Assembly: GCF_988242995.1 (NCBI RefSeq)
Contig: NZ_OZ547043.1
DNA length: 64,000 nt
Direction: 5' to 3' (one strand)
The notes under the pieces were generated by a model. It searched no databases. It was not told the DNA's origin and saw only the letters and a program-made list of their open reading frames with translations. Every line of letters starts with the position of its first letter. The stretch's first letter is position 1. Shown here piece after piece: positions 47,335-56,215 of this stretch. A program made the position numbers and the translations under genes.

Positions 47335-47443
47335 ATAACACTGGAGAATAAAATTTATCCGGTGAATGTAGTCGGATAACAAAAAGTAAAGAGGGGCCTA
47401 ATCGACAGGGAAGGCCGCCCCGGATAGCGGGCGGCAGAAGCAA

Positions 47444-48217
47444 TCAGAATTTCCAGGTCAGATGGGCTGCAAATTGCAGACCGTTATAATCATCAGTTGG
47501 GGTGTCGTACCACACTTTACCTGCCGTCAGCCCGAGATTAAGTTGCTCAGTCAGCGGTTGAATACGTTGCAAACTGACGCTCTTCATGCTGCCGTAGCGT
47601 GTTTCTGGCGTCCAGTCATAGGTGTAAGCGCCTGTTCCGCGGCTTAGCCATAGTTGCGTATAACCAGTGCCGCGCGGGTCATTCAGACGCACGGAAATCA
47701 TATTGCTGTAACTACCACCTGCATCGCTGGAGTCATAATGGGTATAGCGGTAGCTGGAGATCACCGGGCCAGTATAGAGTGATACGCCGCCTTGCCAGGC
47801 ATCGACTTCGACATCATCGTAATATTTCGTGTAGCGATAACCGGTCGTGAAAAGCGTTTTTGGCAACAGTGCCAGGTTAATATCCTGACGAAAATCCTGG
47901 CGGGCAAAGACCGGCGTATTATCCGCAAAGGCAATACCCGTTCGGGTTGTCAGCCAGTTATTCCATTTATACCAGACCGCACCCTGACCGCGAGTGGCAT
48001 TGAAATGTTCAGTTTCATAATCACGACGCCCCTGGGAAAGATTAAAAAGCAGCGTTGCGTTTTCAACTTTCGCCACCAGTTCAGCATACGCTAAATTACG
48101 GTTGCCATGATCGCCAGAATAATCGGTAAAATCGTAGCCCGCGGTAATGGAAGTTAACCCGGCATAAGCGGGCAATGCGCTAAAAATTGCTGCCGCTAAT
48201 AACGTCCGTTTTATCAT
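47444..48217 (-). CDS. yaiO: outer-membrane beta-barrel protein
   Basis: 257 aa with signal peptide; ends in ...HLTWKF aromatic terminus. Confidence 0.9.
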   Translation of the reverse strand: MIKRTLLAAAIFSALPAYAGLTSITAGYDFTDYSGDHGNRNLAYAELVAKVENATLLFNLSQGRRDYETEHFNATRGQGAVWYKWNNWLTTRTGIAFADNTPVFARQDFRQDINLALLPKTLFTTGYRYTKYYDDVEVDAWQGGVSLYTGPVISSYRYTHYDSSDAGGSYSNMISVRLNDPRGTGYTQLWLSRGTGAYTYDWTPETRYGSMKSVSLQRIQPLTEQLNLGLTAGKVWYDTPTDDYNGLQFAAHLTWKF

Positions 48218-48218
48218 T

Positions 48219-48929
48219 TTAATCTCCTGTACGGATAAGTTCTTGTCGGAGTGAATAAGTTCCGGTAGGTAAATTACGTTCTACAATCACGCGCGGGCCA
48301 AGTTGCGTGTTCGGGGAAATAATTCGCCCAGGCAAAATAATAACTTGTACGCCAAGGCGTGAACGCTGCCCGATATAACAACCTAATTTATCGCATTCGG
48401 TAGCGATAATTCCCTCTGGAGTTCGAACAGACACGGGCTGTTGATCCAGACGATGATTACTGGTACGTACTTGTGCGCCCAAATATGCCTGGTTTGCAAC
48501 TACCGAGTCGGCGATAAAGCATTGCGGACCAATCGTTGCTTCCGCTTCAATAACCGCATTTTTAATTTCGGTGGCAAAACCAATTTTTACGCCATTGCTG
48601 ATTATTGTGCCAGGACGAATAAACGCATAATTACCTATCAGGCAGTTTGCGCCAATCACTACCGGACCCTGAATAACGGCACCGTGACAAATACGGGTAT
48701 TCGCGCCGATAACAACTTCACCTGCAGTTTCATCAATAATTACCTGGTCTGCAATCTGAATATTTTTCTCTTTAACATTAAGCTTCAGAAAGTTTTTCAG
48801 TTCCTGTGACAGAAGGTTGGGAATAAGCGGTTGACGCTTCCACCAGTGCGGAATAGCGGGTGGGTTTGTCGCGCTGAGGTTCGCGTCCAGTAAAAAAGGC
48901 AATAAGTCCATAAATAATCCAGATGGCAT
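48219..48929 (-). CDS. yaiX: hexapeptide-repeat acyl/acetyltransferase; intact here (interrupted by IS2 in K-12)
   Basis: 236-aa ORF with left-handed beta-helix repeats; start uncertain (ATG 48929 or 48911); overlaps the yaiP 3' end by about 150 nt. Confidence 0.65.
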   Translation of the reverse strand: MPSGLFMDLLPFLLDANLSATNPPAIPHWWKRQPLIPNLLSQELKNFLKLNVKEKNIQIADQVIIDETAGEVVIGANTRICHGAVIQGPVVIGANCLIGNYAFIRPGTIISNGVKIGFATEIKNAVIEAEATIGPQCFIADSVVANQAYLGAQVRTSNHRLDQQPVSVRTPEGIIATECDKLGCYIGQRSRLGVQVIILPGRIISPNTQLGPRVIVERNLPTGTYSLRQELIRTGD

Positions 48930-49974
48930 AAGCTAATAATACATACACAACGGAAAGCGGCGCTAAAGGCACCAACAACCAGCAACGATGAAACCAGGCG
49001 CTAAAAGCACCAATAACACAAACTACGCCGACCCAGATAAGCGGAAACATTGCCAACACCACACCATGCGGCCCGGTGGTGATGAATTCATTAAACCAGG
49101 TAGTGAGATAAATCCCAACGCCATAAAGCACAACCAACAGCATAGGAAATATACTGAAGATACCGAAGCGGCTAAATAAAAGCCTTTTATGCAGGCGCAT
49201 ACAGACCGCGTAGCCCACAATCCAACGCCGCCAGCGACGCCATTCCTCACGCGGGCTGTTGCATTCCTGTGGGTATACGATGCAGCGATTCGCCTGCCGA
49301 ATACGATAGCCGTTTGCCACCAATGTCCAGGTGAGATCAAGGTCTTCGACTTTAGTACGATCAGAGAAACCGAACTTACGCAATACATCAGTACGGAACA
49401 TCCCGCAGGCACCGCTGATAATAAACGGTGCGCCGCCCAGGAGCTGCTGTAGCGTGCGCTTCATAACAATCATCGGCAACTTTACGGTCGCGCGGATGTG
49501 CGGTAACAGACCCGCGCCTTTCAACGCAGTAGAGGGAATGCCGCCTACGGCATCAGCACCGCGCTCTATTTCTGCAAGCATATAGCCCATTCCGTCTTGA
49601 TCGGGCGGAACATAGGTGTCGGCATCACTTAAAAAAACCTGGTCGCAGGTGGCGTAATTGAGGCCATTCATCAGCGCACCACCTTTACCGGTATTTTTTT
49701 GCGTGACGGCAACAAAGCGGTCGCCCCATTTGCGTTTGACTTCCGCCATGACCGCTTCGGTATTGTCCGTGGAGCCGTCGTTTACGCAAATTACCCGGCA
49801 AAAATAAGGATTACGCAGCAGATTATCCAGTGACTGTGCCAGACACGGGCCTTCGTTATAAGCAGGTATAATGGCGTCAATACAGCCTTTCTTTTGACTG
49901 GGTTTACGTTTTAGCGTACTTAAAAACCATAGCAACATTGCTATGGACATACAGATAAATATCCAGGTTTTCAT
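48778..49974 (-). CDS. yaiP: family-2 glycosyltransferase with C-terminal membrane domain
   Basis: 398 aa; GT2 motifs (VNDGSTDNT, SDADT). Confidence 0.9.
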   Translation of the reverse strand: MKTWIFICMSIAMLLWFLSTLKRKPSQKKGCIDAIIPAYNEGPCLAQSLDNLLRNPYFCRVICVNDGSTDNTEAVMAEVKRKWGDRFVAVTQKNTGKGGALMNGLNYATCDQVFLSDADTYVPPDQDGMGYMLAEIERGADAVGGIPSTALKGAGLLPHIRATVKLPMIVMKRTLQQLLGGAPFIISGACGMFRTDVLRKFGFSDRTKVEDLDLTWTLVANGYRIRQANRCIVYPQECNSPREEWRRWRRWIVGYAVCMRLHKRLLFSRFGIFSIFPMLLVVLYGVGIYLTTWFNEFITTGPHGVVLAMFPLIWVGVVCVIGAFSAWFHRCWLLVPLAPLSVVYVLLAYAIWIIYGLIAFFTGREPQRDKPTRYSALVEASTAYSQPSVTGTEKLSEA

Positions 49975-49983
49975 GCAATTTGC

Positions 49984-50655
49984 TCAAAGAATCATTTTAT
50001 GAATTACAAAGCCTTCACCCAGATCGCTATTGACCTGTTGCCCGCGAAATTGTGCAACTGCACGCAGGCGATCATGACGCATATAATCGCGTCGTTCCTG
50101 GCTTTTATGTTTTTTTAATGCAGCAAGTTTGACTGTGAAATATTCTTCTTTAACGGATTCAAAAACCTGAGGCATAAATGAAAGCCAGGTGCTTGGGGTT
50201 TCGTAGCCGAGAATTTGTGGAATAGTTCGGCAGGCAACCATTGAAGCTTGATAAACAGCAAGATGATCCTGATGGCGGTCGGCATCATGCATGGTATATA
50301 CCCGCATGATTTCAACATCAGAAGGAATTTGATTTTTAATGATGTCTTCCAGGGCGGAAATCATATCATTGAGCTGCAAATGCGCGCGGGTGTCAGCAAA
50401 ATTAAGATGAATAGTTTGGTGGCACCCTAATATCTTTAGGGCGTTGCGCGATTCTTCATGGCGATCGATTATTCCATCTGTGCCAGAGTTGCCGGTAGTC
50501 ATCACCACGGCTGCGATATAAATTCCTTTTTGCGCAAGACGAGCAAGCGACGCGCCACAGCCCAATTCTATATCATCAGGATGTGCGCCAATAGCAAGGA
50601 TACCCTTTCTTTTATTTGCCGAAGAAAGGATGGCTGAATCTAAAACCTTATCCAC
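49984..50655 (-). CDS. yaiS: PIG-L/LmbE-family deacetylase
   Basis: 223-aa ORF with AIGAHPDDIELGCG motif; the K-12 annotation may use a shorter start. Confidence 0.8.
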   Translation of the reverse strand: MDKVLDSAILSSANKRKGILAIGAHPDDIELGCGASLARLAQKGIYIAAVVMTTGNSGTDGIIDRHEESRNALKILGCHQTIHLNFADTRAHLQLNDMISALEDIIKNQIPSDVEIMRVYTMHDADRHQDHLAVYQASMVACRTIPQILGYETPSTWLSFMPQVFESVKEEYFTVKLAALKKHKSQERRDYMRHDRLRAVAQFRGQQVNSDLGEGFVIHKMIL

Positions 50656-51263
50656 TTAATGACACTCCATTTTATTTATTATACTACAAGCACAACGATG
50701 CCCGCAGAGACGTAATCTCTGGCACAGACAGATGCTAATTTTTAAGTGTTAAAAATTACTGATAGCTGAAAAATAAGGGGCTTTCAGGTACGGGGATACG
50801 GCTGCGTAATCTTTTATGTAGTTCATATGTTAAGTGTTTGTGTGTTTGGTTTGTATAGTTATTTTGTTTTATATATTGTATTTAGATGTGATTTAGTTTG
50901 TCAATTAATTACATATTAAAAATATGTTCTAGGCACAAATATGGATTATATACATTATGTGAATGTATTATGTGGTTGATTGAGAATGATACAGTTATAT
51001 ATGCAATGTGAATATAATGATTTCATTATATGTATTGCTGTTAATAAAATAAAAGACATTATGTTCTGCTTGTTTATGCATTAATAAAAATGAAGTGCAG
51101 TAACTTACTGAATTGTCAGAGTGGGTGTAATTGCATATTTAATCTTTCCTTTGCCGCTTTTTTGCTAAGAATAAAATCATCTGTGCGATAACGACTAATT
51201 CTTTTAATGAATGTTTTTATTCCTGAATACTGCTCCTATAACAAGACAGGGGAGCAGACAATC

Positions 51264-52226
51264 ATGGCAATTTCATCGCGTAACACACTTCTTGCCGCAC
51301 TGGCATTCATCGCTTTTCAGGCACAGGCGGTGAACGTCACCGTGGCCTATCAAACCTCCGCTGAACCGGCGAAAGTGGCTCAGGCTGATAACACCTTTGC
51401 TAAAGAGAGCGGGGCGACGGTGGACTGGCGTAAGTTTGACAGCGGAGCCAGCATCGTGCGGGCGCTGGCTTCAGGCGATGTCCAAATCGGTAACCTCGGT
51501 TCCAGCCCATTAGCGGTGGCAGCCAGCCAACAGGTGCCGATTGAAGTCTTCTTACTGGCGTCAAAACTGGGTAACTCCGAAGCGCTGGTGGTAAAGAAAA
51601 CTATCAGCAAACCGGAAGATCTCATTGGCAAACGCATCGCCGTACCGTTTATCTCCACCACCCACTACAGCCTGCTGGCGGCGCTGAAACACTGGGGTAT
51701 AAAACCCGGACAAGTGGAGATAGTGAACCTGCAGCCACCCGCGATTATCGCCGCATGGCAACGGGGAGACATTGATGGTGCTTATGTCTGGGCACCGGCG
51801 GTTAACGCCCTGGAAAAAGACGGCAAGGTGCTGACCGATTCTGAACAGGTCGGGCAGTGGGGCGCGCCGACGCTGGATGTCTGGGTAGTGCGCAAAGATT
51901 TTGCCGAGAAACATCCTGAGGTCGTGAAAGCGTTCGCTAAAAGCGCCATCGATGCTCAGCAACCGTACATTGCTAACCCAGACGCGTGGCTGAAACAGCC
52001 TGAAAACATCAGCAAACTGGCGCGGTTAAGCGGCGTGCCTGAAGGTGACGTTCCGGGGCTGGTGAAGGGGAATACCTATCTGACGCCGCAGCAGCAAACG
52101 GCAGAACTGACCGGATCGGTGAACAAAGCGATCATCGACACCGCGCAGTTTTTGAAAGAGCAGGGCAAAGTCCCGGCTGTAGCGAACGATTACAGCCAGT
52201 ACGTGACCTCGCGCTTCGTGCAATAA
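51264..52226 (+). CDS. tauA: taurine ABC transporter periplasmic binding protein
   Basis: 320 aa from MAISSRNTLLAALAFIAFQAQA... Confidence 0.93.
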   Translation: MAISSRNTLLAALAFIAFQAQAVNVTVAYQTSAEPAKVAQADNTFAKESGATVDWRKFDSGASIVRALASGDVQIGNLGSSPLAVAASQQVPIEVFLLASKLGNSEALVVKKTISKPEDLIGKRIAVPFISTTHYSLLAALKHWGIKPGQVEIVNLQPPAIIAAWQRGDIDGAYVWAPAVNALEKDGKVLTDSEQVGQWGAPTLDVWVVRKDFAEKHPEVVKAFAKSAIDAQQPYIANPDAWLKQPENISKLARLSGVPEGDVPGLVKGNTYLTPQQQTAELTGSVNKAIIDTAQFLKEQGKVPAVANDYSQYVTSRFVQ

Positions 52227-52238
52227 AAGGAGGCGCAG

Positions 52239-53006
52239 ATGCTGCAAATCTCTCATCTTTACGCCGATTATGGCGGCAAACCGGCGTTGGAAGATATCAA
52301 CCTGACGCTGGAAAGCGGCGAGCTTCTGGTGGTTCTGGGACCGTCTGGCTGCGGCAAAACCACCTTGCTGAATCTGATTGCCGGTTTTGTGCCTTATCAG
52401 CATGGCAGCATTCAACTGGCGGGTAAGTGCATTGAGGGACCGGGCGCAGAGCGGGGCGTGGTTTTTCAGAATGAAGGGCTGTTGCCGTGGCGTAATGTGG
52501 TAGACAACGTGGCGTTCGGCCTGCAACTGGCAGGTGTAGAGAAAGTACAGCGCCTGGAAATCGCGCACCAGATGCTGAAAAAAGTGGGGCTGGAAGGCGC
52601 AGAAAAACGCTATATCTGGCAGCTTTCCGGCGGTCAACGTCAGCGGGTAGGGATTGCCCGCGCGCTGGCGGCGAATCCCCAGCTGTTATTACTCGACGAA
52701 CCGTTTGGCGCGCTGGACGCCTTCACCCGCGATCAGATGCAAACTCTACTGCTGAAACTCTGGCAGGAGACGGGCAAGCAGGTGCTGTTGATTACCCACG
52801 ATATAGAAGAAGCGGTGTTTATGGCGACTGAACTGGTTCTGCTTTCACCCGGCCCTGGCCGCGTGCTGGAGCGGCTGCCGCTCAACTTTGCTCGCCGCTT
52901 TGTTGCGGGAGAGTCGAGCCGCAGCATCAAGTCCGATCCACAATTCATCGCTATGCGCGAATATGTTTTAAGCCGCGTATTTGAGCAACGGGAGGCGTTC
53001 TCATGA
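52239..53006 (+). CDS. tauB: taurine ABC transporter ATPase
   Basis: 255 aa; Walker [10 protein letters not shown]. Confidence 0.95.
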
Positions 53007-55692: not shown

Positions 55693-56215
55693 GGTCTGCC
55701 TGATGTTTGTGGAATCGAGGGGCATAGTATACCTGAAGCAGGGTAGGGATGTTTTACGAAAGTTGTCGCGATGTTGACAAGAAGAGAATGGAAGAGAGGC
55801 CAGGACATCTTTGTAATAGAAATAGCAATAATTTCATATTCACTGAAAATATTTTTAATCTTTATTTATAGTTATTGGTTATTATTTTTTGGAGTTTGGT
55901 TGCGCTGCTACAAATTGAATAATTAAAACTTTGTTGTATATTCATAGGATATTTATCTGGTTTGTGTTTGTGATATTTATGATGCATATGTTTCAAAAAT
56001 AACATTATCTGCAACATATTGAAATATGGTGTTTTTATCAATTCGATGCGTGTTTTTCTCCATAAATTACATATGTCCACATTCGGACTTAGGGGAAAGA
56101 ATAATTGAACCATTCCTCTATAACGCCGCATAATCGTCAACGCGAAACATAATATGTTTTCTATGCATTGATAATTGATGGATCAACTTATTACGTCCCT
56201 GAGGAGGGATGACAA

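What the first reader, a model, noticed from the sequence alone, without database searches (positions are those of the whole stretch)
50656..51263. 600-bp AT-rich control region between divergent yaiS and tauA
The intergenic region is unusually long and AT-rich, with repeated TGTGAAT-like motifs. The sulphate-starvation regulators Cbl and CysB are known to act at the tau promoter. Such tracts are also typical H-NS targets.
Basis: inference. Interest (0 to 1): 0.25.

Follow-up and report, generated by a model that had tools for sequence, protein, structure and literature searches.

The report
AT-rich yaiS–tauA spacer, already described
The long AT-rich gap between yaiS and tauA in E. coli is two things side by side: a short, conserved sulphur-starvation promoter for tauA, and a previously published H-NS-bound "promoter island" that belongs to the accessory yaiS gene cassette. 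It is real but ordinary.

Summary
The gap (50656-51263, 608 bp, 30% GC) is real. Its core holds the lowest-GC 300 bp of the 64-kb window.

The "repeated TGTGAAT motif" is only two copies. The second copy is lost in K-12, and the motif is absent upstream of tauA in 66 of 69 other loci.

The gap is composite:
- **tauA promoter (about 51126-51263).** This is 98% identical to the K-12 promoter where Cbl/CysB control was established. It keeps 30 of the 43 columns that are conserved across about 70 enterobacterial species.
- **AT-rich core (50812-51106).** This is the published promoter island "383994_309 yaiS/tauA". It is reported H-NS-bound in vivo and in vitro, and bound by sigma70 and sigmaS RNA polymerase in vitro.
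- **yaiS promoter.** The best-conserved block of the core (50818-50932) surrounds a near-consensus yaiS promoter.

The tract travels with the yaiS-P-X-O cassette. It is missing from E. coli genomes where frmR or other genes abut tauA, and from all other genera. An equivalent AT-rich trough precedes yaiS where the cassette sits elsewhere.

So Cbl/CysB and H-NS are both relevant, but at different parts of the gap, and all of this is already known.

The one mildly new point is that the K-12/window tau promoter is a divergent haplotype of the family-wide promoter. Interest is low.

The parts
50656..51263 (.). Whole yaiS-tauA intergenic gap (608 bp, GC 30.2%)
   Evidence: RefSeq annotation of near-identical genomes
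50656..50817 (-). yaiS-proximal leader region. It holds the yaiS SD (GGAG, 50665-50668 on the minus strand), a conserved small hairpin CAGAGA-CGTAA-TCTCTG (50705-50721) and the palindrome TAATTTTTAA-GTG-TTAAAAATTA (50736-50758). The segment 50701-50817 is otherwise variable (34.5% variable columns).
50812..51106 (.). AT-rich core (GC about 0.23). It is the published promoter island 383994_309 yaiS(-)/tauA(+) of K-12, mapped onto the window. For K-12 it is reported as H-NS-bound and as a sigma70/sigmaS holoenzyme-binding spacer.
   Evidence: mapping; PMC3661553 Table 1; PMC3946193; PMC5493296; composition
50818..50932 (-). Best-conserved block of the tract (12% variable columns, against 26-45% in the flanks). 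It spans about -64 to +50 around the predicted yaiS promoter. The initial transcribed part is C/A-rich on the yaiS strand.
   Evidence: kept in E. fergusonii while the flanks are barely alignable
50875..50904 (-). Predicted sigma70 promoter of yaiS: -35 TTGACA (50904-50899), 18-nt spacer, -10 TACAAT (50880-50875), 11 of 12 matches. Inferred TSS is near 50868. The one H-NS-motif-like site, TCAATTAATT (50901-50910), overlaps the -35.
   Evidence: the same promoter was predicted for K-12 in PMC3946193
50946..51016 (+).
50980..51007 (+). Rightward 'constitutive' promoter predicted for K-12 (TTGAGA-16-TACAAT). In the window allele the -10 reads TGCAAT, losing the key A at position 2.
   Evidence: PMC3946193; sequence
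51037..51125 (.). Most variable segment between alleles (45% variable columns; 9-bp indel relative to K-12). It acts as a spacer between the island and the tau promoter.
51126..51263 (+). tauA promoter module and leader, with only 3 differences from K-12. Elements: upstream T-rich box TTGCCGCTTTTTTGCTAAGAA (51151-51171); dyad ATC-N8-GAT (51176-51189); TAATTCTTTTA (51196-51206); weak -35 TTTAAT (51203-51208); 17-nt spacer; -10 AATACT (51226-51231); inferred TSS about 51238; SD GGGGAG (51249-51254); ATG at 51264.
   Evidence: The assignment of regulator sites is an inference from conservation plus recalled footprint coordinates.
51230..51257 (+). Inverted repeat CTGCTCCT / GGGAGCAG. The 3' arm covers the SD. 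The 5' arm lies upstream of the inferred TSS, so the hairpin could form only in transcripts arriving from upstream.
47363..51225 (.). 3,863-bp segment (GC 45%) containing yaiO-yaiX-yaiP-yaiS, the AT-rich tract and the divergent tau upstream region. It replaces about 165 bp (a REP-like palindrome plus the consensus tau promoter) found at the 'empty' frmR|tauA site of other E. coli.

Best explanation
The gap is a composite of two independent regulatory units that happen to lie back to back.

**(1) The tauA promoter: the rightmost ~140 bp (51126-51263).** It is a weak sigma70 promoter (-35 TTTAAT, -10 AATACT, inferred TSS about 51238, 26-nt unstructured leader). It depends on the LysR-type activators Cbl and CysB, which bind just upstream (about -35 to -110) and switch on taurine uptake and desulfonation under sulphate starvation.

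**(2) The rest of the gap belongs to the accessory yaiS-yaiP-yaiX-yaiO cassette.** The cassette encodes a PIG-L deacetylase, a GT2 glycosyltransferase, an acetyltransferase and an outer-membrane barrel. The 300-bp core at about 23% GC contains a near-consensus yaiS promoter (TTGACA-18-TACAAT) followed by a roughly 210-nt leader. Because it is so AT-rich it is coated by H-NS, which keeps yaiS and the many fortuitous promoter-like sites in the tract silent. This is the 'promoter island' behaviour described for K-12.

The TGTGAAT copies are incidental AT-rich sequence, not regulator sites.

**Shown here:** the anatomy, the conservation pattern, the linkage of the tract to the cassette, and its absence from other tau promoters.

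**Taken from the literature for K-12:** H-NS and RNA polymerase binding, and the Cbl/CysB dependence of tauABCD.

**Inferred:** the exact TSSs, which bases Cbl and CysB contact, and that H-NS behaves the same way on this allele.
For: **Composition and position**
- The core is the GC minimum of the window.
- It maps exactly onto K-12 promoter island 383994_309. That island is listed as H-NS-bound in all the ChIP studies compiled and as flagged foreign by three predictors (PMC3661553).
- H-NS also binds the spacer in vitro by genomic SELEX, and RpoD holoenzyme binds there (PMC3946193). RpoS holoenzyme also binds this spacer by SELEX (PMC5493296).

**Conservation among six yaiS-type alleles, including E. 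whittamii**
- There are two low-variability blocks. One is 50818-50932, around TTGACA-18-TACAAT. The other is 51126-51263. They are separated by a 45%-variable spacer.
- E. fergusonii keeps the yaiS promoter block although its flanks are barely alignable.

**Cross-species comparison**
- In about 70 species the tau promoter is a tightly conserved block of 130 bp or less. GC upstream of it returns to 0.45-0.7 by -200.
- The window keeps 30 of the 43 most conserved columns.

**Linkage to the cassette**
- The tract and cassette are present in 4,240 of 5,426 E. coli genomes. They are absent from 594 'empty-site' genomes and 451 O157/O145-type genomes.
- In C. braakii and another record the cassette sits away from tauA, yet it still has a GC 0.19-0.21 trough 200-300 bp upstream of yaiS.

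**tauA leader**
- An mRNA starting at the inferred TSS is unusually unstructured (MFE -0.2 kcal/mol, z = +2.05), as expected for a genuine translation start region.
Against: - No experiment on this allele is available. The gap is only 85% identical to K-12 overall.
- The primary footprint paper could not be read. The Cbl site coordinates (-112 to -68) and the reported multiple upstream CysB sites are recalled from memory, and some CysB accessory sites might extend into the tract.
- A simple sigma70 scan finds no excess of promoter-like sites over composition-matched shuffles: 2 found against 4.1 expected.
- The H-NS high-affinity motif is not enriched: 1 found against 1.5 expected.
- So both the 'island' and the H-NS properties rest on base composition plus the K-12 literature.
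- The window-type promoter lacks, in register, the T-N11-A dyad seen in 40 of 47 other promoters.
Confidence: 0.8

Rival explanations
1. One reading: the whole 600 bp is the control region of tauABCD, and the repeated TGTGAAT-like motifs are Cbl/CysB (or other regulator) binding sites.
For: - Cbl and CysB do regulate tauABCD.
- CysB is known to protect extended regions and to use accessory sites with a very weak consensus (PMC11329422).
- The first TGTGAAT copy is invariant in the six yaiS-type alleles.
Against: - There are only two copies, which is not significant once the choice of motif is accounted for.
- The second copy is mutated in K-12, 55989 and E. whittamii.
- The motif is absent upstream of tauA in 66 of 69 loci.
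- 1,045 E. coli genomes and all other genera keep the operon with a promoter of about 140 bp or less and no such tract.
Confidence: 0.04
2. The AT-rich tract also matters for tauA. H-NS nucleated in the tract spreads over the adjacent tau promoter, so in yaiS-type strains Cbl/CysB act partly as anti-silencers. The tract would then tighten repression of tauABCD in sulphate-replete cells. This is compatible with the main explanation.
For: - H-NS is bound in the spacer.
- Shimada et al. argue that H-NS bound in a divergent spacer affects both promoters.
- The yaiS-type tau promoter has diverged strongly from the family consensus and lost the canonical dyad. This could reflect a changed regulatory setting.
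- The ssuE/elfA spacer, next to the other Cbl-dependent operon, is also in the promoter-island list.
Against: - There are no data on tau expression in hns mutants or across haplotypes.
- A 45%-variable spacer of about 90 bp separates the island from the promoter.
- Strains and genera without the tract regulate the same operon.
Confidence: 0.25
3. The conserved 115-bp block (50818-50932) encodes an unannotated product: a small hydrophobic protein (ORF 50827-50919, 30 aa) or a G/U-rich small RNA on the plus strand.
For: - The block is as conserved as the tauA leader.
- An ATG-initiated 30-codon ORF lies in it.
- The plus strand is strikingly G/T-rich (GC skew +0.56).
Against: - Substitutions in the ORF across alleles are almost all non-synonymous (about 8 to 1). 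The stop codon is not conserved and there is no SD.
- There is no Rfam hit at E-value up to 1, and no terminator-like site.
- K-12 RefSeq annotates nothing there, although it does carry ribosome-profiling small proteins such as ykiC nearby.
- The block is fully explained by a promoter plus its initial transcribed region.
Confidence: 0.05
4. The tract is the scar of a mobile element or a decayed gene.
For: - It lies at a variable junction where IS1 and IS5 insertions are seen in some genomes.
- The cassette occurs at different loci in different genera.
Against: - It is single-copy in E. coli genomes.
- The only matches in the plasmid collection are 1.2-4.9 Mb E. coli records.
- There are no terminal repeats beyond chance.
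- No ORF of 41 aa or more lies wholly within the gap.
Confidence: 0.03

Closest known systems
Promoter islands of E. coli K-12 (Panyukov & Ozoline 2013, PMC3661553), entry 383994_309 yaiS(-)/tauA(+)
   Same: Window 50812-51106 is the orthologous sequence. It is AT-rich, linked to an accessory gene cassette, and lies in a divergent spacer.
   Different: The window carries a minority allele: at least 99% identity in only about 450 of 5,426 genomes, and about 86% identity to K-12 over the gap. One of the K-12 predicted promoters has a damaged -10 here (TGCAAT). A plain consensus scan shows no promoter excess over shuffles.
H-NS xenogeneic silencing of AT-rich, horizontally acquired DNA
   Same: The GC is about 29 points below the window mean. 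The tract is tied to a cassette with presence/absence polymorphism and alternative chromosomal contexts. H-NS binding is reported for K-12 in vivo and in vitro.
   Different: The genes of the cassette are only mildly AT-rich (GC 44-50%); the extreme composition is confined to about 300 bp of promoter region. H-NS occupancy was not measured for this allele.
Cbl/CysB-activated sulphate-starvation promoters (tauA, ssuE; van der Ploeg 1997, 1999)
   Same: The proximal 138 bp are 98% identical to the K-12 tauA promoter. They show a weak -35, conserved T-rich and TAATTC boxes upstream, and the same leader and SD.
   Different: The K-12/window version is itself atypical. It is about 50% identical to the family-wide promoter over the 95 nt upstream of the -10 (other species average 69% among themselves). 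It also lacks the in-register T-N11-A dyad.

Membership tests
Promoter island (Panyukov & Ozoline) | Orthology to one of the 78 listed K-12 regions | tested here: met
   PI 383994_309 maps to window 50812-51106
Promoter island (Panyukov & Ozoline) | Extremely high density of predicted transcription start points (PlatProm) | tested here: inconclusive
   PlatProm is not available here. A simple sigma70 consensus scan gives 2 sites against 4.1 in composition-matched shuffles.
Promoter island (Panyukov & Ozoline) | RNA polymerase binding with little productive transcription | not testable with these tools
   K-12 literature only: RpoD and RpoS holoenzyme SELEX peaks in the spacer
H-NS-silenced xenogeneic DNA | GC content far below the genome average | tested here: met
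   GC 0.23 against a mean of 0.52; lowest 300-bp window in the 64 kb
H-NS-silenced xenogeneic DNA | Association with accessory or horizontally moved genes | tested here: met
   The cassette and tract are absent from 594 + 451 E. coli genomes. The cassette sits at other loci in Citrobacter and another record, with the same AT-rich trough.
H-NS-silenced xenogeneic DNA | H-NS occupancy | not testable with these tools
   Reported for K-12 in all compiled ChIP studies and by in vitro SELEX. Not measured for this allele.
H-NS-silenced xenogeneic DNA | High-affinity nucleation motif (TCGATAAATT-like) | tested here: inconclusive
   One match with 2 mismatches at 50901, over the yaiS -35. Not enriched (1 against 1.5 expected).
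Cbl/CysB-dependent tau promoter | Sequence identity with the experimentally characterised K-12 tauA promoter | tested here: met
   3 differences in 51126-51263
Cbl/CysB-dependent tau promoter | Published Cbl footprint and CysB sites overlap the assigned boxes | not testable with these tools
   The primary paper is not held. The coordinates -112 to -68 are recalled from memory. They would correspond to about 51126-51170, which coincides with the conserved box.
Cbl/CysB-dependent tau promoter | Conservation of the promoter architecture across Enterobacteriaceae | tested here: met
   30 of 43 highly conserved columns are kept, and the -10 and leader are near-invariant
Cbl/CysB-dependent tau promoter | LysR-type T-N11-A dyad upstream of the -35 | tested here: not met
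   Present in register in 40 of 47 distinct promoters, but not in the window/K-12 type, which has only ATC-N8-GAT at 51176-51189
Repeated regulator-binding motif (TGTGAAT) | Over-representation and conservation across tau promoters | tested here: not met
CRP site (TGTGA-N6-TCACA) | Match to both half-sites | tested here: not met
   Best match is 7 of 10, equal to the null mode

The most novel reading that the evidence does not exclude
E. coli carries two old, deeply diverged haplotypes of the tauA promoter.

- **The K-12/window type.** It is the type used for all the biochemistry, it is linked to the yaiS cassette and its H-NS-bound tract, and it is also present in E. fergusonii and E. whittamii. 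Over -107 to -13 it is only about 50% identical to the promoter that B2/ST131, O157/O145, E. albertii and about 68 other enterobacterial species share. It has also lost the canonical T-N11-A dyad.
- **A sharp boundary.** The switch between haplotypes lies at the -10 hexamer (51226/51227).

If the haplotypes differ functionally, sulphonate-sulphur regulation would differ between major E. coli lineages. The differences could be in Cbl versus CysB dependence or in H-NS counter-silencing.

A second possible difference concerns the conserved inverted repeat over the SD. It could form only in read-through transcripts, and so might keep tauA translation insulated from transcription leaking out of the promoter island.
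Probability: 0.3. Interest if true: 0.4.

Novelty: already known. Interest (0 to 1): 0.15.

Why it matters
For the finding as stated, very little. Both the Cbl/CysB control of tauABCD and the AT-rich, H-NS-bound 'promoter island' in this spacer are published for K-12.

The useful outcome is a clean partition of the gap. About 140 bp belong to tauA and the rest to the yaiS cassette. This prevents the AT-rich tract from being mis-annotated as tau regulatory DNA.

The side result may interest people working on promoter evolution or sulphur regulation. The textbook K-12 tau promoter is the atypical haplotype, and about 19% of E. coli genomes carry the family-consensus promoter instead.

Tried and rejected
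- **Rfam.** A search of 49500-52500 at E-value up to 1 gave nothing.
- **Terminator scan.** None found.
- **sORF 50827-50919.** Rejected: non-synonymous changes dominate, there is no SD, and the stop is not conserved.
- **CRP reading of TGTGA.** Rejected.
- **k-mer enrichment in the gap.** None beyond a Markov-1 null.
- **H-NS motif enrichment.** None.
- **Mobile-element origin.** The tract is single-copy, and the only matches in the plasmid collection are 1.2-4.9 Mb E. coli records.
- **Covariation test of the SD hairpin across 54 species.** 86% of cells pair, but there is no compensatory change and the central pair is kept in only 8 of 54. The result is inconclusive.
- **A recent foreign donor for the divergent tau promoter.** None of 68 other species exceeds 56% identity. 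E. fergusonii carries the same type at 71% identity, so it is an old Escherichia haplotype rather than a recent import.
- **Primary literature.** Attempts to open van der Ploeg 1997 and a related paper failed. Searches for 'tau promoter' and 'tauAp' gave nothing usable. The Kahramanoglou ChIP supplements are not held.

Full report
**1. The observation**

The window is E. coli. yaiS (PIG-L deacetylase, 49984-50655, minus strand) and tauA (ATG at 51264) are divergent and separated by exactly 50656-51263, 608 bp. The GC content is 30.2%, against 52.1% for the window. The 300 bp starting at 50807 (GC 0.23) are the GC minimum of the whole 64 kb, about 4.7 sd below the mean. The gap is long but not unique in the window.

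The 'repeated TGTGAAT-like motif' is weak:
- There are two exact copies (50958 and 51007), inside one imperfect 22-nt direct repeat.
- This is nominally 2 against 0.24 expected (P = 0.017). The 7-mer was chosen after looking, and no k-mer in the gap exceeds a composition-matched null.
- TGTGA is not enriched and there is no CRP-like site.

**2. Anatomy**

I aligned six alleles that carry the yaiS-linked gap: the window, two intermediate alleles, K-12, 55989 and E. whittamii. The gap divides into blocks:

| Segment | Variable columns | Content |
|---|---|---|
| 50656-50700 | 13% | yaiS SD and start |
| 50701-50817 | 34.5% | yaiS leader, with a conserved small hairpin at 50705-50721 |
| 50818-50932 | 12% | conserved block around the yaiS promoter |
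| 50933-51036 | 26% | holds both TGTGAAT copies |
| 51037-51125 | 45% | includes a 9-bp indel relative to K-12 |
| 51126-51225 | 20% | tau promoter upstream region |
| 51226-51263 | 10.5% | tau -10 and leader |

- **The conserved block 50818-50932** spans about -64 to +50 around a near-consensus minus-strand promoter: TTGACA (50904-50899), 18 nt, TACAAT (50880-50875). Shimada et al. predicted the same promoter for yaiS in K-12. E. fergusonii keeps this block almost intact while its flanks are barely alignable.
- **The 30-codon ORF in the block** shows almost only non-synonymous changes and has no SD, so I reject it.
- **Other scans** found no Rfam match and no terminator.

**3. The tauA promoter**

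I fetched tauA loci from 80 species-level genomes. They show a strikingly conserved promoter:

CTAaCnaTTGCCGnTTTTTTTCTAAAAACG - TnG-N7-CnA dyad - TTTTAATTCCTTTATCAAA - 14 nt - GAAATACTGCnCCCATAACAAGACAGGGGAGCAGACAATCATG

- Upstream of about -140 the GC returns to 0.45-0.7, and a neighbouring gene soon follows.
- In the window the corresponding elements are -10 AATACT (51226-31), -35 TTTAAT (51203-08, spacer 17), TAATTCTTTTA (51196-206), ATC-N8-GAT (51176-89) and TTGCCGCTTTTTTGCTAAGAA (51151-71).
- The promoter geometry puts the TSS near 51238. This is an inference.
- An mRNA starting there is almost structure-free: MFE -0.2 kcal/mol, and all 200 shuffles fold at least as well.
- The window differs from K-12 at only 3 positions in 51126-51263, so the K-12 genetics should transfer. 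tauABCD needs both Cbl and CysB (cited in PMC11495319).
- I could not open the primary footprint paper. My recollection of a Cbl footprint at -112 to -68 would place it at about 51126-51170, on the conserved T-rich box. This remains unverified.
- CysB sites have a very weak consensus, and activation sites are centred 50-60 bp upstream of the TSS (PMC11329422). A CysB motif search is therefore not meaningful.

**4. The AT-rich core is a published feature**

- Panyukov & Ozoline list 'promoter island' 383994_309 yaiS(-)/tauA(+) among 78 such regions of K-12. It is marked as H-NS-bound in all the ChIP studies they compiled and as foreign by three predictors.
- Converted and aligned, that island is window 50812-51106.
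- Shimada et al. found an RpoD holoenzyme SELEX site and an in vitro H-NS SELEX site in the same spacer. A later paper found an RpoS holoenzyme site there.
- Caveats: a plain sigma70 scan shows no excess of promoter-like sites over shuffles, and the H-NS motif is not enriched. The property is essentially compositional.

**5. The tract belongs to the yaiS cassette, not to tauA**

| Configuration upstream of tauA | Genomes (of 5,426) |
|---|---|
| yaiS-linked gap | 4,240 |
| 'Empty site': frmR directly abuts tauA across 305 bp | 594 |
| Response regulator / MASE1 kinase / UhpC-like set (O157/O145 type) | 451 |

- Among genomes with the yaiS-linked gap, at least 99% identity to the window is seen in only 450. 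The K-12-like allele, at about 86% identity, is the commonest.
- Some genomes have IS1 or IS5 inserted in the gap.
- Against the empty site, the window is identical up to 47362 and again from 51226/7. In between, 3,863 bp replace about 165 bp. The 3,863 bp hold yaiO-X-P-S, the tract and a tau upstream region. The 165 bp hold a REP-like palindrome and the consensus tau promoter.
- Outside E. coli the tract occurs only with the cassette. E. whittamii and E. fergusonii have it.
- In Citrobacter braakii and a record labelled Yersinia the same four-gene cassette lies at unrelated loci. It still has a GC 0.19-0.21 trough 200-300 bp upstream of yaiS.
- TGTGAAT is absent from the 608 bp upstream of tauA in 66 of 69 loci.

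**6. A modestly new point**

- Over the 95 nt upstream of the -10, the window/K-12 type is on average 50% (maximum 56%) identical to 68 other species. Those species average 69% among themselves, and the EC958 type averages 72% to them.
- The window type still keeps 30 of the 43 most conserved columns.
- It lacks, in register, the T-N11-A dyad present in 40 of 47 distinct promoters. The central pair of that dyad changes symmetrically between genera: TA 11, CG 16, GC 1.
- E. fergusonii carries the same divergent type: 71% identical to the window and 46% to EC958. It is therefore an old Escherichia haplotype linked to the cassette, not a recent import.
- The boundary between haplotypes in E. coli is sharp, at the -10.

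**7. A side observation**

- CTGCTCCT (51230-37) pairs with GGGAGCAG (51250-57), which covers the SD.
- The hairpin (-14.7 kcal/mol, z = -2.2) can form only in RNAs that start upstream of the inferred TSS.
- Pairing potential is kept in 86% of cells across 54 species, but without covariation. Both arms are constrained for other reasons.
- It might insulate tauA translation from read-through transcription. This is speculative.

**8. Verdict**

Cbl/CysB act on the proximal ~140 bp, and H-NS acts on the AT-rich core. The core is the promoter and silencing region of the yaiS cassette, not tau control DNA.
- Everything central is already published for K-12. Interest is low at 0.15, and novelty is 'already known'.
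- The most novel reading not excluded is a functional difference between the two tau promoter haplotypes, or read-through insulation by the SD hairpin. I put its probability at about 0.3, with interest 0.4 if true.

Noticed in passing
window 51230-51257: An inverted repeat has a 3' arm that covers the tauA Shine-Dalgarno and a 5' arm that lies upstream of the inferred TSS. The hairpin (-14.7 kcal/mol) would form only in read-through transcripts, while the native leader is structure-free. Pairing potential is kept across 54 species, but without covariation.
   Followed up: partly
window 47363-51225; L004:4834-5138; L002:3737-4038: The frmR-tauA junction is a variable hot spot with at least three occupants in E. 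coli: the yaiO-X-P-S cassette (4,240 genomes), nothing (594 genomes, with a REP-like palindrome GTAGGCATGATAAGAGGCGTGAGCGTCACATCAGGC), or a response regulator / MASE1 kinase / UhpC-like set (451 genomes). The right-hand boundary falls exactly at the tauA -10 hexamer.
   Followed up: yes
window 47444-50655 (yaiO, yaiX, yaiP, yaiS); L090, L092, L093: The four genes (outer-membrane barrel, hexapeptide acetyltransferase, GT2 glycosyltransferase, PIG-L deacetylase) move as one cassette between unrelated loci in Escherichia, Citrobacter and a 'Yersinia' record. By gene content they look like an uncharacterised PNAG-like exopolysaccharide module. All four are intact in the window.
   Followed up: partly
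L001:3060-3617 (K-12 yaiS), L001:1-1873 (yaiX); L087, L088, L089: The cassette is decaying in many strains. K-12 yaiS is annotated at 185 aa against 223 aa here, and K-12 yaiX is split by IS2. yaiS is annotated as a partial pseudogene in 55989, GPEC1035 and MS20655.
   Followed up: partly
L003:4578-6681; L005:3259-3956; hit H60: IS1 and IS5-family elements are inserted within the yaiS-tauA gap in several E. coli genomes (PSS-04, EC931, B20127). In EC931 an IS1 has deleted the cassette up to about 200 bp from tauA.
   Followed up: partly
tauA promoters of about 70 species (e.g. L004:5070-5085), about -62 to -50 from the inferred TSS: A LysR-type T-N11-A dyad (TnG-N7-CnA) has a central pair that changes symmetrically between genera: TTG/CAA in Escherichia, TCG/CGA in Enterobacter, TGG/CCA in Raoultella. 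The K-12/window promoter lacks it in register.
   Followed up: partly
window about 55726-56215: This is the second-lowest GC trough of the window (GC 0.257 at about 55810), in another divergent gap downstream of hemB. It is not in the published promoter-island list.
   Followed up: no
K-12 ssuE/elfA spacer (L086:1514-1868) and cysB/ymiA spacer: The spacers next to ssuE (the other Cbl-dependent operon) and next to cysB are also among the 78 published promoter islands (PMC3661553 Table 1). That is three sulphur-regulon neighbours in a short list.
   Followed up: no
L009-L013 (Citrobacter) against window 51264-52226: TauA is 97% identical between this E. coli and several Citrobacter species, as close as to E. 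albertii. This is unusually high for these genera and may point to exchange of tau genes.
   Followed up: no
L064: A contig labelled Chryseobacterium sp. 18061 carries a typical enterobacterial tauA (85% identity) and tau promoter. Contamination or mislabelling of the assembly is likely.
   Followed up: no
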